The translations under genes were made by a program, and so were the position numbers. Below the pieces are notes generated by a model. That model saw nothing but the letters and a program-made list of their open reading frames with translations. It made no database searches and had not been told where the DNA came from. Positions 7,245-47,331 of a DNA stretch of 64,000 nucleotides are shown piece after piece. Position 1 is the first letter of the stretch. Every line of letters starts with the position of its first letter. Where the stretch lies: the sequence record PZ445428.1. One strand, written 5' to 3'. The stretch is from a phage.

Positions 7245-7277
7245 AAAAAGGGGAAGGAGCATAGCCCCCTCCCCTTA
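7245..7277 (-). terminator. intrinsic terminator downstream of 7294-8061 gene
   Basis: Minus-strand RNA forms GGGGA...TCCCC stem followed by TTTTT. Confidence 0.5.
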
Positions 7278-7293
7278 GGTTTAATTTACCAGA

Positions 7294-8061
7294 TTATTCA
7301 GCAGCCGCAGCTTTTGCATCCAGTTTAGCACGCTTAGCAGCACCATCATAGTCCTTAGCAACCAGACCACGACGAGACAGCATAGATTTAACACCGCGCT
7401 CAGACTTACCAGTTTTCTCAGCGATATCAGCAACAGTCATGTTAGCCAGATCCAGACCTTCTAACAGATCTTCGCGAGTTTTAGCGCTTGAAGTTTCCTG
7501 TACCGGCATTGCAGCGATACGACCTTCACGAAGCAGGCTCAGAGCTTTACCACGGATCTGCTTGATATTGCGACCGAAGTGAGCAGCGATAGCTTCAATA
7601 GTTGCACCAGCAACAACCTGATTAACGAAATCAGTTTCTTCGTCAGGAGTGAAGGAACGAACGGCAGCAGCTTTTTCAGTTGGCTTAACAGCAGCAGTCA
7701 TTTCCAGACTCAGAATCTTACCCTGTACCTGCTTAGCACCGAACTGACCACCAGCTACAGCAGCAGCGATTTCAGCGTAGGTATACTGACCAGCATGAGA
7801 GTTCAGGAAATCAACCAGTTCAGCTTCCTGCTCAGGAGTCCACGGGGATTTCTGTACTTCGTTAGCTTTCTGTACTTCGAAGCCTTCTTTACGCAGCTTA
7901 GAACCAACAGAGCGGGCGGTTACGTCCTTGCCAGTTTCAGCAGCCAGTTCTACAGCGATAGCAGCAACTTGTTCTTGAGAGATTACAGCTACACCCAGAG
8001 CAACGGCTTTAGCTTTCAGAGACTCGGTTACACCTTCTACGTTCCAGTTCAGTTTAGACAT
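7294..8061 (-). CDS. DNA-binding protein with four tandem HTH-like repeats
   Basis: 255 aa, Ala-rich; four repeats of the form acidic-x-[TI]xxEIAxxxGxxxxxV[RK]xKxxSLxRxG. Confidence 0.6.
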   Translation of the reverse strand: MSKLNWNVEGVTESLKAKAVALGVAVISQEQVAAIAVELAAETGKDVTARSVGSKLRKEGFEVQKANEVQKSPWTPEQEAELVDFLNSHAGQYTYAEIAAAVAGGQFGAKQVQGKILSLEMTAAVKPTEKAAAVRSFTPDEETDFVNQVVAGATIEAIAAHFGRNIKQIRGKALSLLREGRIAAMPVQETSSAKTREDLLEGLDLANMTVADIAEKTGKSERGVKSMLSRRGLVAKDYDGAAKRAKLDAKAAAAE

Positions 8062-8063
8062 TA

Positions 8064-8837
8064 TTATTTTTTCTCCAATAGTTCTTTAATCGACAGGATT
8101 TCTATCCCATTCGTTTCGGCTTTCTTATAAGATGAGGAAGAACGCTTTGATTCATCCTCACAGATGAGGTAGTTTACGTCTTTGGTAACGGACTTCTTAA
8201 CCGTATATCCTAGACTTTCTAAGTAGTTTGTTGCATCCGTTCTATTTGCAAAATCTTGCAAAGAACCGGTAATACATACCACGATTCCGTTCGGTTGAGC
8301 AACTAAATCATCGATAAAGATGATATCAGCTTTTGTGCCCCGAATACCAGAACTAAATTTCCATGGTAGTTCGATAACATCCTTGCCTTGTGGGGAATTT
8401 AGCCAGGCTTTATAATTTTCTCCAGCTTTGCCGTCAGCCTTAACATCATTAAAACTAATGCAACCCTGGGATAGCTTTTTAGCAGCAACCTCTCCAATCA
8501 GAGGGATTCCTAAAGAACCGAGAACTGAACCAAAGTCAATGTCTCCGCGAACCTTAGTATTTAACTCGCTAATTAACTTAGCGGCAACCTTACTTCCCAC
8601 AGCTCCGACCAAATCTTCTTCGGTCAGGTAAAACAGTTCTGAGATCTTAGTCAGTTCCAGCTTTTCAATTGTTTTCGGGCCAAAGCCCTTTAACTTCATC
8701 TTTGTGCAGAAGTTCTCAATTAACTTACTTGACTGAGCTGGACAGTTGGACTTATTCCGACAGAATAATTGTCCGTTGACAAGATCTAGCTTAGAACCAC
8801 AAGAGGGACATTGTGTTGGAATTTCGATTTTCATCAA
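8064..8837 (-). CDS. ligB: NAD-dependent DNA ligase, C-terminal subunit (Zn finger, HhH, BRCT)
   Basis: CPSCGSKLDLVNGQLFCRNKSNCPAQ zinc finger followed by HhH-like and BRCT-like segments; located downstream of the adenylation subunit. Confidence 0.75.
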   Translation of the reverse strand: MMKIEIPTQCPSCGSKLDLVNGQLFCRNKSNCPAQSSKLIENFCTKMKLKGFGPKTIEKLELTKISELFYLTEEDLVGAVGSKVAAKLISELNTKVRGDIDFGSVLGSLGIPLIGEVAAKKLSQGCISFNDVKADGKAGENYKAWLNSPQGKDVIELPWKFSSGIRGTKADIIFIDDLVAQPNGIVVCITGSLQDFANRTDATNYLESLGYTVKKSVTKDVNYLICEDESKRSSSSYKKAETNGIEILSIKELLEKK

Positions 8838-8864
8838 ATTTCTTCCTTATCAATTTATATAACT

Positions 8865-8893
8865 ATTATAGCAAGTATTTAAGCATTTAGCAA
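8865..8893 (-). promoter_or_regulatory. sigma70 promoter between the two ligase genes
   Basis: Reverse complement reads TTGCTAaatgcttaaatacttgcTATAAT then ATAAATTGATAAGGAAG. Confidence 0.6.
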
Positions 8894-9040
8894 CTACAAT
8901 TTTAACTAACTTTGCTTACCCTCGCCATAACTTTCTATCCCTCAACTGAATGATAATAGTATATACCTAAGCGGCGAAAATGTCAATAACCACTTTATAA
9001 TTCCGACATGGGAAACGGGTAGCAAAGGGTTATGAATTAC

Positions 9041-10054
9041 TTAATCTACTCGCTCTACAATACATGGGATTACACCACCAGCACGAATCACTCGAATCTG
9101 GCAACCGATCTCTAAATCGAGAGCGTTAATGTAATCAACGTTATTGAGAGTTGCTTTAATAATCTTGGCATCGTCAATAATTACCGGTTCGAAATATCCA
9201 ACAGGAGTTACTTTACCAGAAGCCCCTACCTGCCACTCAACTTTGAGAAGAGTTGTAATTTCGCCTTCTTCATCTTGTTTAATTGCATAAGCACCACGAG
9301 GATGTTTATTTGTCCAACCTTCACGGAAGAATTTGTTGTTGTCATTAATACGAACAACTTTACCATCCATTGGATACCAGTTGAAGTAGTTTTTAATATT
9401 CAGTACAGTGATGAAATCTTCGTTAGCTAACCAAGACATATCATCTAAGTAAGAGCCTGTAATACCTACAGAATCTTCGGAACACTGAATACCATAAGCT
9501 ACAAAGATCAATCCACCTTCCGCAATACGTTCGATGAAGTCATCTTCTTCTTTTAAGTTAATAGCACCAGAAGCGTAGTTACGTTTGTTTTCTACTTCTT
9601 TAGTGATAAGAACTTCACCAGTGATTTGAGTTGGTACTTTCTGAGAAATCTTTTTCGGAATGTTCAGCAATCTAACGTTGCTTGTGACATCATTTCCTAG
9701 AATACCATTACCACGAGTTAACGCTTGAACAAACGTTCCGTCGATATACAACAGAGAAATTGCGCAACCGTCTAGCTTATCAGTTTCTACATCATCAAGA
9801 GTAGTGAATGGAGCTTTATCACCCCGATCGAAGTAAACTTTCTGCAAAGAATACATACGATACAGATGTGGGATATCACCTTTCGGACCGATGGCATCTT
9901 CCGCTGTTGGGAAACGTTTAAGCAGACGATCATACTCAGCATCAGAGATAATACTATAACCCTGATAATACGCTTCTTGACAACGTTGGATAAACTCTTT
10001 TACATTATTCATCGTCGGCGATTTCCATCTTGAGTTCTTTATTATACTGCGCAA
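9041..10054 (-). CDS. ligA: NAD-dependent DNA ligase, N-terminal adenylation/OB subunit
   Basis: KxDG adenylation motif in VETDKLDGCAISLLY; 337 aa. Confidence 0.8.
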   Translation of the reverse strand: MRSIIKNSRWKSPTMNNVKEFIQRCQEAYYQGYSIISDAEYDRLLKRFPTAEDAIGPKGDIPHLYRMYSLQKVYFDRGDKAPFTTLDDVETDKLDGCAISLLYIDGTFVQALTRGNGILGNDVTSNVRLLNIPKKISQKVPTQITGEVLITKEVENKRNYASGAINLKEEDDFIERIAEGGLIFVAYGIQCSEDSVGITGSYLDDMSWLANEDFITVLNIKNYFNWYPMDGKVVRINDNNKFFREGWTNKHPRGAYAIKQDEEGEITTLLKVEWQVGASGKVTPVGYFEPVIIDDAKIIKATLNNVDYINALDLEIGCQIRVIRAGGVIPCIVERVD

Positions 10055-10205
10055 CCATACCAGCTAAATCAGCAGATTCTTTCAGAAACGCATCTCTGTA
10101 CGCTTTTTGATTTACTGTGCCGATACTATCTTGATATTTAATGCGAGCCATTGAAAGCAAATTAAGTTTTGCTTGAATTTTGGGAAGTGTTACTGTCATT
10201 GCCAT
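10005..10205 (-). CDS. hypothetical small protein
   Basis: Start moved to ATG at 10205, 6 nt after GAGAGGA of the promoter module; overlaps the ligA start. Confidence 0.4.
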   Translation of the reverse strand: MAMTVTLPKIQAKLNLLSMARIKYQDSIGTVNQKAYRDAFLKESADLAGMVAQYNKELKMEIADDE

Positions 10206-10234
10206 AATTGATCCTCTCATCAATTTATATAAAT

Positions 10235-10263
10235 ATTATATATTAAAATTGAGCTGAAAGCAA
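10235..10263 (-). promoter_or_regulatory. sigma70 early promoter
   Basis: Reverse complement reads TTGCTTtcagctcaattttaataTATAAT then ATAAATTGATGAGAGGA. Confidence 0.6.
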
Positions 10264-10290
10264 GTACATTTATAAAGAAAAAGCCAAGAA

Positions 10291-10599
10291 CTATTCAGTC
10301 TTGGCTTTGAGTTCCTCAGCTCTTTTCTGAACTTCGGCAAGAACCTCAGATTCACTAAGGATTTGCGTAAAAGCATAGAATAGCTGTGAAGTAGTTTCTA
10401 GAGTGTACGGAAAAGAGAAGCCGGATTTCGTTGGAAACCATTCTCCAGTAATATCCTGGAGCCAATATCTAATTCCCATGTATAGATTCCCACGAAATTC
10501 AGATACTGTCAATCTTACTTGTTCACCTTCCTTTTCCCATAGAAGGATTGACTGATCATCAATGTGTCCTTCATAGTTTTGGTTTACCTGATCGCTCAT
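10291..10599 (-). CDS. hypothetical protein
   Basis: 102-aa ORF. Confidence 0.5.
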   Translation of the reverse strand: MSDQVNQNYEGHIDDQSILLWEKEGEQVRLTVSEFRGNLYMGIRYWLQDITGEWFPTKSGFSFPYTLETTSQLFYAFTQILSESEVLAEVQKRAEELKAKTE

Positions 10600-10649
10600 T
10601 TACGTTTCTCAAATAGACAAAAAGCCCCATATAGGGGCTAATTGCTTTC

Positions 10650-10946
10650 TTATCGGCCTACTGGAGAAGCACGATCTAACTCTGACTGAAGGCTCGTAAT
10701 GCGACGAACTTTCGCAACAGGAATGAAACGGAAGCTATCGTTAGTACGGGAGAAAACGAGGATCTCGTCGTCTTTATCCTTACGAATACGTTCACGTTTA
10801 ATGCGCTCTGCTAGGTATTTATCCTGAGCAGGATCAAACTCCATCGTACCCTGAAGATACGTGGTTCCTTTCTGACGCAGTTTCTCATAATGGAGATAAA
10901 ACTCACCAAATTTGTTGCATTGTGCAATGATTTCAGCTTTATTCAT
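10650..10946 (-). CDS. hypothetical protein
   Basis: 98-aa ORF. Confidence 0.5.
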   Translation of the reverse strand: MNKAEIIAQCNKFGEFYLHYEKLRQKGTTYLQGTMEFDPAQDKYLAERIKRERIRKDKDDEILVFSRTNDSFRFIPVAKVRRITSLQSELDRASPVGR

Positions 10947-43297: not shown

Positions 43298-43327
43298 TTG
43301 CTTTTTACTTAAGATTTCTGCTATAAT
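43298..43327 (+). promoter_or_regulatory. sigma70 early promoter
   Basis: TTGCTT-18 nt-TATAAT. Confidence 0.55.
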
Positions 43328-43356
43328 AGTTATATAAATTGATGAGAGGAATCAGA

Positions 43357-47077: not shown

Positions 47078-47331
47078 TTTCTTGTTATAATATTTATATA
47101 AATTGATGGGGAGAAATCCTCATCAAAGTTCACTAAGGTATTAGCTCGACCTAGGACTGGCTGCCACCAAGCACGATCCCTACGACTCGGGAGAAGTTCT
47201 AGATTAGTCCACTAGATTCAGCGGCAACTGAATAGTGTATCGGGTTTGTGAAGAGCGGGTATCCAAGCCTGGCTAATGGCACTGGGTATTACGCACACCG
47301 AGCTAATAGCCTTAGTAAACTTGAAGAATTT

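What the first reader, a model, noticed from the sequence alone, without database searches (positions are those of the whole stretch)
8064..10054. NAD-dependent DNA ligase split into two genes separated by a promoter
The adenylation/OB part (KxDG) and the Zn-finger/HhH/BRCT part are separate ORFs with about 200 bp between them, which contains a full early promoter module. The ligase is therefore made as two polypeptides, possibly with independent expression of the C-terminal part.
Basis: partly seen in the sequence, partly recalled or inferred. Interest (0 to 1): 0.4.

Follow-up and report, generated by a model that had tools for sequence, protein, structure and literature searches.

The report
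Known two-gene DNA ligase of T5-like phages

Summary
The window is 100% identical to Escherichia phage TrudiGerster, a T5-like phage of the Demerecviridae. On the minus strand, ligA (9041-10012, 323 aa: domain Ia, adenylation, OB) and ligB (8064-8834, 256 aa: Zn finger, HhH, BRCT) are separated by 206 nt. That spacer has stop codons in all three frames and holds two sigma-70 promoters.

A joined A+B sequence aligns with E. coli LigA as one unbroken stretch, so the break lies in the OB/Zn-finger linker.

None of this is new:
- The T5 GenBank record annotates ligA, ligB and the promoters P-K28b and P-K28a in the same spacer.
- PDB entries 9HU3 and 9I5I hold both chains from a Providencia T5-like phage.

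I add three points. The split and the spacing of both promoters are conserved across the family, down to Vibrio phages with about 50% protein identity. The stretch between the ligA stop and the distal promoter is a variable slot that holds 0-3 extra genes, including a putative homing endonuclease. Compact single-chain relatives of 555-586 aa exist in metagenomes.

Sequencing error, intron, intein and translational bypass are excluded. Verdict: already known, low interest.

The parts
10235..10263 (-). T5-type early promoter upstream of the 72-aa ORF and ligA (-35 TTGCTT at 10263..10258, 17-nt spacer, -10 TATAAT at 10240..10235, then the leader ATAAATTGA)
   Evidence: Read from the sequence. Perfect match to the module TATAAT-N6-ATAAATTGA at 10220-10240. 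T5 annotates a 'putative promoter' directly upstream of ligA.
10005..10223 (-). Small ORF (annotated as 10005..10220, 71 aa; 72 aa from the upstream TTG at 10223; phrog_8267, function unknown) whose stop overlaps the ligA ATG by 8 nt, so ligA is probably translationally coupled to it
   Evidence: The overlap ATGAATAA was read from the sequence.
9041..10012 (-). ligA: ligase subunit A, 323 aa, with domain Ia (SDAEYDRL), the nucleotidyltransferase domain (K79-L-D-G) and the OB fold
   Evidence: Pfam PF01653 5.5e-23 and PF03120 1.9e-21. PDB 9HU3_A 3.1e-103. Colinear with E. coli LigA up to about residue 397. Catalytic residues are invariant in 55 split-form sequences.
8835..9040 (-). 206-nt non-coding spacer between the two ligase genes, with stops in all frames, no Rfam match, no unusual fold and no terminator
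   Evidence: (z-score -0.84). It is 93.7% identical to T5, against 82% for ligA and 89% for ligB.
8958..8986 (-). Distal promoter, homologue of T5 P-K28b (TTGACA-17-TATACT)
   Evidence: Aligned to the T5 region annotated 'promoter P-K 28b'. Its -10 ends 122-126 nt before the ligB start in the 8 phages with a verified ATG.
8865..8893 (-). Proximal promoter, homologue of T5 P-K28a (TTGCTA-17-TATAAT with TG before the -10), followed by the leader ATAAATTGATAAGGAAG, which contains the Shine-Dalgarno sequence of ligB
   Evidence: TTGnTATAAT is invariant in 8 Demerecviridae.
8064..8834 (-). ligB: ligase subunit B, 256 aa, with a C4 Zn finger (C9, C12, C25, C31), an HhH domain and a BRCT domain
   Evidence: Pfam BRCT 9.9e-09. 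PDB 9HU3_B 5.7e-79 and E. coli LigA 402-529. Zn-finger cysteines are conserved in all aligned B subunits.
7294..8061 (-). D5-like DNA-binding protein gene. Its ATG lies 2 nt after the ligB stop, so it shares the transcription unit fed by the spacer promoters
   Evidence: The junction AAATAATAATG was read from the sequence. The order ligB then D5 is conserved in all relatives examined.
7248..7276 (-). Terminator-like hairpin (13-bp stem followed by a T run) after the D5-like gene; the likely end or attenuator of the ligB-D5 unit
   Evidence: A terminator is annotated at the equivalent place, though on the opposite strand, in Salmonella phage AKM_ECS.

Best explanation
This locus encodes the two-subunit NAD+-dependent DNA ligase of a T5-like phage, orthologous to T5 LigA/LigB.

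Subunit A (domain Ia, nucleotidyltransferase, OB) carries the chemistry: it reacts with NAD+ to form the K79-AMP intermediate and transfers AMP to the nick. Subunit B (Zn finger, HhH, BRCT) supplies the part of the DNA-encircling clamp that single-chain LigA carries in its C-terminal half. The two assemble non-covalently at the place where the OB/Zn linker would be.

ligA is transcribed from the early promoter at about 10240 and is translationally coupled to a small upstream ORF. No terminator follows ligA. ligB is therefore reached by read-through and also receives transcripts from the two strong early promoters in the spacer (P-K28b-like and P-K28a-like). These promoters also serve the D5-like gene coupled to ligB.

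Shown here: gene structure, domain content, breakpoint, promoter homology, and family-wide conservation. Shown by others for relatives: both chains are present in a solved structure, and P-K28a/b are annotated as named promoters in T5. Inferred: the A:B stoichiometry, excess or independent synthesis of B, and the division of labour between the subunits.
For: - The window is 100% identical to phage TrudiGerster, whose record annotates 'NAD-dependent DNA ligase A subunit' and 'B subunit'.
- Pfam domains split as Ia/adenylation/OB against HhH/BRCT.
- A joined A+B aligns as one stretch across the junction to E. coli LigA 282-666.
- PDB 9HU3 and 9I5I contain chain A (3.1e-103) and chain B 'DNA ligase subunit B' (5.7e-79). 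Chain B is 100% identical to a Providencia T5-like phage protein.
- T5 record AY692264 annotates ligA, promoter P-K 28b, promoter P-K 28a and ligB in the same order, and the window spacer aligns to it at 93.7% identity.
- The distal promoter (-35 and -10) and the proximal TG-extended -10 are conserved in 8 Demerecviridae, including Vibrio phages. Promoter spacing relative to the ligB ATG is fixed across the 8 phages with a verified start.
- K79, D81, G82, E133, D216, G217 and K245 are invariant or near-invariant (at least 54 of 55) in the split-form sequences.
- No terminator or stable structure lies in the spacer.
Against: - No biochemical data for this phage or for T5 itself were found in the searchable library.
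- The paper behind 9HU3 could not be found, so I cannot state what that structure shows about the interface, bound DNA or activity.
- Promoter activity here rests on homology to T5's annotated promoters, not on measurement.
- Motif IV Lys (E. coli K290) is Arg in this lineage. The substitution is conservative and its effect is untested.
Confidence: 0.9

Rival explanations
1. The split is an artefact: a sequencing or assembly error, or a recent pseudogenising frameshift in a single ligase gene.
For: None beyond the general possibility. One record (IME178) shows ligA in two tblastn pieces, which may be a local frameshift.
Against: - The gap is 206 nt with stops in all frames, and ligB is out of frame with ligA.
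- The arrangement is present in 430+ independently sequenced phages, and in genera as distant as Vibrio phages, which carry whole genes in the gap.
- Catalytic residues are under purifying selection.
- The PDB relative has two chains, and chain B starts at the same MKI.
Confidence: 0.01
2. The two halves are rejoined into one polypeptide or one mRNA reading frame by a self-splicing intron, an intein or trans-splicing, or translational bypassing as in T4 gene 60.
For: Phages of this kind do carry homing endonucleases, and the gap holds one in Klebsiella phage vB_Kpn24-P3.
Against: - No Rfam family, introns included, matches at E<=1.
- The spacer RNA folds no better than shuffles, z-score -0.84.
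- The gap content ranges from 200 nt to 1.4 kb of unrelated genes while the promoter pair stays fixed.
- ligB has its own Shine-Dalgarno sequence and ATG.
- No intein-like sequence flanks the junction, and A+B is colinear with LigA with nothing left over.
- Separate chains are deposited in the PDB.
Confidence: 0.01
3. The two genes have become functionally independent. A alone is a minimal ligase or adenylyltransferase, while B, made from its own strong promoters together with D5, acts mainly as a separate DNA-binding or BRCT scaffold protein.
For: - B has two dedicated promoters and is translationally linked to D5 rather than to A (sequence).
- A C-terminally truncated LigN still self-adenylates.
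- The genes can lie 1.4 kb apart.
Against: - A and B co-occur in every Demerecviridae locus examined.
- Both chains are deposited together in 9HU3/9I5I, with B named 'DNA ligase subunit B'.
- From established LigA biochemistry (my own knowledge, not tested here), the Zn and HhH domains are needed for efficient nick sealing.
Confidence: 0.07

Closest known systems
Bacteriophage T5 ligA/ligB (T5p114/T5p115, AAU05253/AAU05254) with promoters P-K28b and P-K28a
   Same: Orthologous genes in the same order and neighbourhood (PC4-like gene, ligA, two promoters, ligB, D5-like gene, dnaB). Nucleotide identity is 82% for ligA, 93.7% for the spacer and 89% for ligB. Both promoter hexamer pairs are identical.
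   Different: The window phage (genus Epseptimavirus) has an extra 72-aa ORF between the upstream promoter and ligA, where T5 has 88 bp. It lacks the HNH gene that T5 carries between dnaB and the primase gene.
Two-chain NAD+ DNA ligase in PDB 9HU3/9I5I (Providencia phage vB_PreS_PR1/PSTCR5)
   Same: The same split enzyme. Chain A aligns over residues 4-323 (3.1e-103) and chain B over 1-254 (5.7e-79). The polypeptide ends and the start of B (MKI..IPT.CP.CGS) are the same.
   Different: A different genus with short indels. The publication could not be found in the searchable library, so what that structure shows about the interface or activity is not used here.
Bacterial single-chain LigA (E. 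coli, PDB 2OWO)
   Same: The same six modules in the same order. The motif I lysine, the domain Ia motif and the four Zn-finger cysteines all align. A joined A+B aligns without interruption across the junction.
   Different: E. coli LigA is one 671-aa chain against 323 + 256 aa here. The phage nucleotidyltransferase domain is about 70 aa shorter. Only the OB region and the KxDG segment align with significant scores; the OB-to-BRCT stretch scores 8.3e-29. Motif IV Lys is Arg in the phage lineage.
Compact single-chain relatives (555-586 aa) in metagenomes
   Same: 39-45% identical to subunit A over its full length, and they continue into a B-like Zn/HhH/BRCT part. Their total length is close to A+B.
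   Different: They are unsplit, with a 15-25-residue linker where the phage genes are broken. Their genomic context is unknown, since no relative was found in IMG/VR.
'Genes in pieces' created by mobile-gene insertion in phages (for example, Aeromonas phage Aeh1 nrdA split by mobE; recalled from memory, not checked here)
   Same: An essential DNA-metabolism enzyme is encoded as two adjacent genes, with a slot between them that holds a homing-endonuclease-type gene in some relatives.
   Different: Here the split is ancient and family-wide, most members have no endonuclease in the gap, and a conserved promoter pair is part of the arrangement. An origin by endonuclease insertion is inference only.

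Membership tests
NAD+-dependent DNA ligase (LigA family) | Motif I KxDG with the adenylated lysine | tested here: met
   K79-L-D-G aligns with E. coli K115-L-D-G. K, D and G are invariant in 55 split, 20 compact fused and 34 long homologues.
NAD+-dependent DNA ligase (LigA family) | N-terminal domain Ia (NMN-binding, specifies NAD+), with the motif SDxEYDxL | tested here: met
   'ISDAEYDRL' at residues 22-30 aligns with E. coli 'IPDAEYDRL' 30-38.
NAD+-dependent DNA ligase (LigA family) | LigA-type OB-fold domain after the nucleotidyltransferase domain | tested here: met
   PF03120 at 1.9e-21, above the curated cut-off. Aligns to E. coli 282-389.
NAD+-dependent DNA ligase (LigA family) | C4 zinc finger, HhH domain and BRCT domain | tested here: met
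   Present, but on the second polypeptide. Four Cys align with the E. coli Zn finger and are conserved in all aligned B subunits. The HhH region aligns to E. coli 402-529. BRCT PF00533 at 9.9e-09. The Pfam HhH hit alone is below its cut-off.
NAD+-dependent DNA ligase (LigA family) | All modules on one polypeptide | tested here: not met
   Two genes separated by 206 nt with stops in all frames. This is a split variant of the family.
NAD+-dependent DNA ligase (LigA family) | NAD+-dependent nick-sealing activity | not testable with these tools
T5-type split ligase (ligA/ligB of Demerecviridae) | Break at the OB/Zn-finger linker, with B starting 5-8 residues before the first Zn-finger cysteine | tested here: met
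   A-only cluster representatives end 0-12 residues after the end of the A match (one outlier of 23).
T5-type split ligase (ligA/ligB of Demerecviridae) | Synteny: ligA, (variable slot), dual promoter, ligB, D5-like gene, replicative helicase | tested here: met
T5-type split ligase (ligA/ligB of Demerecviridae) | Tandem early promoters P-K28b and P-K28a directly upstream of ligB | tested here: met
   By sequence homology to the annotated T5 promoters and by consensus scan. Promoter activity itself was not measured.
T5-type split ligase (ligA/ligB of Demerecviridae) | Physical A-B complex | not testable with these tools
   Only indirect: both chains of the Providencia phage orthologue are deposited together in 9HU3/9I5I.

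The most novel reading that the evidence does not exclude
The split is a maintained regulatory design rather than a frozen accident. On this reading, the stretch between the ligA stop and the dual promoter is a family-wide landing site for mobile or accessory genes, and such an insertion created the split. Subunit B would be made with D5 from two strong promoters in excess of A or on a different schedule, and would have a role of its own. One such role would be binding nicks or recruiting partners through its BRCT domain, possibly tied to the site-specific nicks of T5-type genomes.
Probability: 0.15. Interest if true: 0.4.

Novelty: already known. Interest (0 to 1): 0.1.

Why it matters
It matters little as a discovery. 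The split T5 ligase has been in GenBank and the literature since 2005, it is annotated in hundreds of phage genomes, and a two-chain orthologue has a solved structure. The promoters in the gap are T5 promoters that carry classical names in the T5 GenBank record.

Three side results may be of modest use to people working on T5-like phages or on engineering split ligases:
- The spacing of the dual promoter relative to ligB is conserved across the whole family.
- The gap upstream of the promoters is a variable slot for extra genes.
- Compact single-chain relatives exist.

Tried and rejected
- **Rfam scan** of 7900-10400 at E<=1 found nothing, so no intron or riboswitch is detected.
- **RNA fold** of the spacer gave z = -0.84, so there is no special structure or terminator.
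- **Pfam and PHROGs** on the genes that fill the gap in Vibrio and Proteus phages found no homing endonuclease. The hits were a DprA-like protein, a crAss001_48-like protein and unknowns. A T5orf172-type endonuclease was found only in Klebsiella phage vB_Kpn24-P3.
- **IMG/VR search** for the genomic context of the fused relatives P0037 and P0039 found no relatives.
- **NJ tree** of A-region sequences, built to ask whether split forms are monophyletic, was star-like with short internal branches. Compact fused forms fall both basal to and among split forms, so I draw no conclusion on the number of split or fusion events.
- **Literature searches** for the paper behind 9HU3, for biochemistry of the T5 ligase, and for 'PK28a' found nothing relevant in the held library.
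- **Codon-position identity** against T5 was meaningless because of indels and was discarded.
Full report
**What the window is.** The 2.4 kb around the finding is 100% identical to Escherichia phage TrudiGerster (MZ501108; Demerecviridae, Markadamsvirinae, Epseptimavirus). It matches 493 phage records at 60-100% identity, nearly all of them T5-like phages of Salmonella, Escherichia and Klebsiella. The GenBank record annotates 'NAD-dependent DNA ligase A subunit' and 'B subunit' at the positions in question, inside the early replication gene block: primase/helicase genes, D2/D3-like genes, ligA, ligB, a D5-like DNA-binding protein, helicase, primase and DNA polymerase.

**Checking the observation.** Both genes are on the minus strand.
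- The upstream ORF (9041..10054 from a TTG) most likely starts at ATG 10012, giving 323 aa. This matches the annotation, the 323-aa T5 protein and the start of the PDB homologue.
- ligB runs 8834..8064 (256 aa).
- Between the ligA stop and the ligB ATG lie 206 nt with stop codons in all three frames, and ligB is in a different frame from ligA.
- Pfam finds the NAD-ligase adenylation domain (5.5e-23) and the NAD-ligase OB domain (1.9e-21) in A, and BRCT (9.9e-09) plus a weak HhH hit in B.
- The consensus scan finds two promoter-like sites on the coding strand inside the gap: TTGACA-17-TATACT (8986..8958, 11/12) and TTGCTA-17-TATAAT with a TG extension (8893..8865, 10/12). It finds no terminator there.
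- Simple hexamer pairs are not enriched in the region as a whole (9 found, 10.5 expected). The longer T5-type module TATAAT-N6-ATAAATTGA matches perfectly at 8850-8870 and occurs 25 times in the window (up to 2 mismatches) against 0.56 expected. All copies are on the minus strand up to 19.3 kb and on the plus strand from 21.5 kb, following gene orientation.

**Where the break lies.** Searched separately against PDB sequences, A aligns to E. coli LigA (2OWO) up to residue 389 and B from residue 402. An artificial A+B fusion aligns to 2OWO as one uninterrupted stretch, query 213-576 to LigA 282-666. The junction reads '...GGVIPCIV ERVD | MKIEIPTQCPSCGS' against '...GDVIPQVVnvvlsERPEdtREVVFPTHCPVCGS'. 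The break is therefore in the short linker between the OB fold and the zinc finger, and nothing is missing or left over.

The adenylated lysine (K79 in KLDG, matching E. coli K115) and the domain Ia motif (ISDAEYDRL, matching IPDAEYDRL 30-38) align. The four zinc-finger cysteines are conserved in all aligned B subunits.

**It is already known.**
- The window spacer aligns to the T5 spacer at 93.7% identity, higher than ligA (82%) or ligB (89%). Both promoters have identical hexamers.
[quoted passage not shown] 2005). They also show that a LigN truncation to domain Ia + adenylation + OB still forms the enzyme-adenylate.
- Wong et al. (2013, PMC3632103) list ligA and ligB in their T5 map.
- The PDB holds two entries, 9HU3 and 9I5I, with a chain 'DNA ligase (NAD(+))' (339 aa; E = 3.1e-103 to A) and a chain 'DNA ligase subunit B' (248 aa; 5.7e-79 to B). 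Chain B is 100% identical to Providencia phages vB_PreS_PR1 and PSTCR5, which are T5-like. I could not find the associated paper in the library.

**How widespread and how old.**
- tblastn with A finds 1201 phage records; tblastn with chain B of 9HU3 finds 931.
- All Demerecviridae loci examined have the split: Sugarlandvirus (Klebsiella), Novosibvirus (Proteus), a Serratia phage, and three Vibrio phages (two in the genera Pogseptimavirus and Thalassavirus). Protein identity falls to about 45-50%.
- In the exhaustive search of 1.84 billion cluster representatives, the best 150 hits include 54 full-length A-only proteins of 345 aa or less. They end 0-12 residues after the end of the A match, with one outlier of 23. 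The split form is therefore very diverse in nature.
- K79, D81, G82, D216, G217 and K245 are invariant in all 55 split-form sequences, and E133 is present in 54 of 55 (one gap). This argues for active enzymes.
- The same search shows about 20 compact single-chain relatives (555-586 aa, close to A+B in length) that are 39-45% identical to A and continue into a B-like part through a 15-25-residue linker.
- An NJ tree places these compact fused forms both basal to and among the split forms, but it is star-like. I do not infer the number of split events.

**Anatomy of the gap across the family.**
- The distance from the ligA stop to the ligB start varies: about 200 nt (T5, TrudiGerster, Klebsiella VAC35), 344 nt (Proteus), 443-683 nt (Vibrio 70E37.1, VspSw_1), about 870-880 nt (Serratia Kamaji, Klebsiella vB_Kpn24-P3) and 1374 nt (Vibrio Chazly21).
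- The extra DNA always lies between the ligA stop and the distal promoter. It encodes unrelated small genes. In vB_Kpn24-P3 it encodes a 232-aa protein with a treble-clef zinc finger and a T5orf172 domain, annotated 'endonuclease'.
- The dual promoter keeps the same spacing relative to ligB in all of them. The distal -10 ends 122-126 nt before the ligB ATG in the 8 phages with a verified start. The proximal -10 ends 29-31 nt before it in the four of those that passed the scan threshold.
- TTGAC, TATA-T and TTGnTATAAT are invariant columns in the 8-genome alignment.
- The conserved unit is therefore dual promoter, ligB, then the D5-like gene. In the window the D5-like ATG lies 2 nt after the ligB stop, and a strong terminator-like hairpin follows at 7276..7248.
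- ligA belongs to the upstream unit. It is driven by the module at 10220-10263 and overlaps the stop of a 72-aa ORF by 8 nt.

**Mechanism (best explanation, confidence 0.9).** The enzyme is a non-covalent heterodimer. A performs adenylation and nick-sealing chemistry. B provides the Zn/HhH/BRCT DNA-binding half of the LigA clamp. ligB is reached by read-through from ligA, since no terminator or stable structure lies in the spacer, and also by initiation at the two spacer promoters. B and D5 can therefore be made independently of A and probably in greater amount than A.
- Shown here: structure of the locus, breakpoint, promoter homology and conservation.
- Shown by others for relatives: both chains in one solved structure, and named promoters in T5.
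- Inferred: stoichiometry, timing and the division of labour.

**Rivals.**
- Sequencing error or pseudogene is excluded by the stops, the frame, the conservation and the two PDB chains.
- Intron, intein or bypass is excluded by the absence of any Rfam hit, the unremarkable fold, the variable gene content of the gap, ligB's own Shine-Dalgarno sequence and ATG, and colinearity with LigA with nothing left over.
- An independent role for B cannot be excluded, but it is disfavoured by strict co-occurrence of A and B and by their co-deposition in the PDB.

**Verdict.** Novelty: already known. Interest: low (0.1). The most novel reading still open is that the split is a maintained regulatory design, that it originated from an insertion at a mobile-gene landing site, and that B has a role of its own. 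I give that a probability of about 0.15.

Noticed in passing
Between the ligA stop and the distal promoter: window about 8987-9040; L009 1759-2457; L010 1870-2484; L004 3492-3659; L005 3457-3753; L007 3453-3983; L006 3469-4687: This short stretch is a variable slot across Demerecviridae. It is empty in T5, TrudiGerster and Klebsiella VAC35. It holds a T5orf172 + treble-clef 'endonuclease' in Klebsiella phage vB_Kpn24-P3, a 204-aa unknown ORF in Serratia Kamaji, and 1-3 small unrelated ORFs in Proteus and Vibrio phages (one of them DprA-like). The dual promoter downstream keeps a fixed distance to ligB throughout.
   Followed up: partly
window 10005-10223 (-): A small ORF (annotated as 71 aa; 72 aa from the upstream TTG; phrog_8267, function unknown) lies between the early promoter and ligA and overlaps the ligA ATG by 8 nt. 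T5 has only 88 bp at this place, with the promoter directly upstream of ligA, so this small gene is gained or lost within the subfamily.
   Followed up: partly
whole window; 25 sites listed (for example 8850-8870, 10220-10240, 43322-43342, 47086-47106): The T5-type early promoter module TATAAT-N6-ATAAATTGA occurs 25 times (up to 2 mismatches) against 0.56 expected. All copies are on the minus strand up to 19.3 kb and on the plus strand from 21.5 kb, which marks a divergence point of early transcription between about 19.3 and 21.5 kb.
   Followed up: no
window 7248-7276 (-): A strong terminator-like hairpin (13-bp stem with 8 GC pairs, then a T run) follows the D5-like gene but overlaps the annotated start (7262) of the replicative helicase gene. 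Either the helicase start is mis-annotated, or the hairpin attenuates transcription into the helicase gene.
   Followed up: no
subunit A residue R221 (window about 9350-9352, - strand): The motif IV lysine of LigA (E. coli K290) is arginine in 54 of 55 split-form sequences and in 15 of 20 compact single-chain relatives. It is K in 15 and R in 9 of the 34 longer homologues. All other catalytic motif residues checked are invariant or nearly so.
   Followed up: partly
metagenome proteins P0037, P0039, P0056, P0059, P0061, P0066: Compact single-chain NAD ligases of 555-586 aa are 39-45% identical to subunit A and continue into a B-like half. Their genomic context is unknown, since no relatives were found in IMG/VR.
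   Followed up: partly
window 10623-10639 (both strands): A palindromic GC-rich hairpin (AGCCCC-ATATA-GGGGCT) scores as a terminator on both strands. It lies in the 50-nt gap between two small minus-strand early genes (10291-10599 and 10650-10946).
   Followed up: no
L008 6575-7108 (T5) compared with window about 5739: T5 carries an HNH-motif gene (T5p118) between dnaB and the primase gene. In TrudiGerster the helicase and primase genes overlap directly with no such gene, which is another example of variable homing-endonuclease content in this replication block.
   Followed up: no
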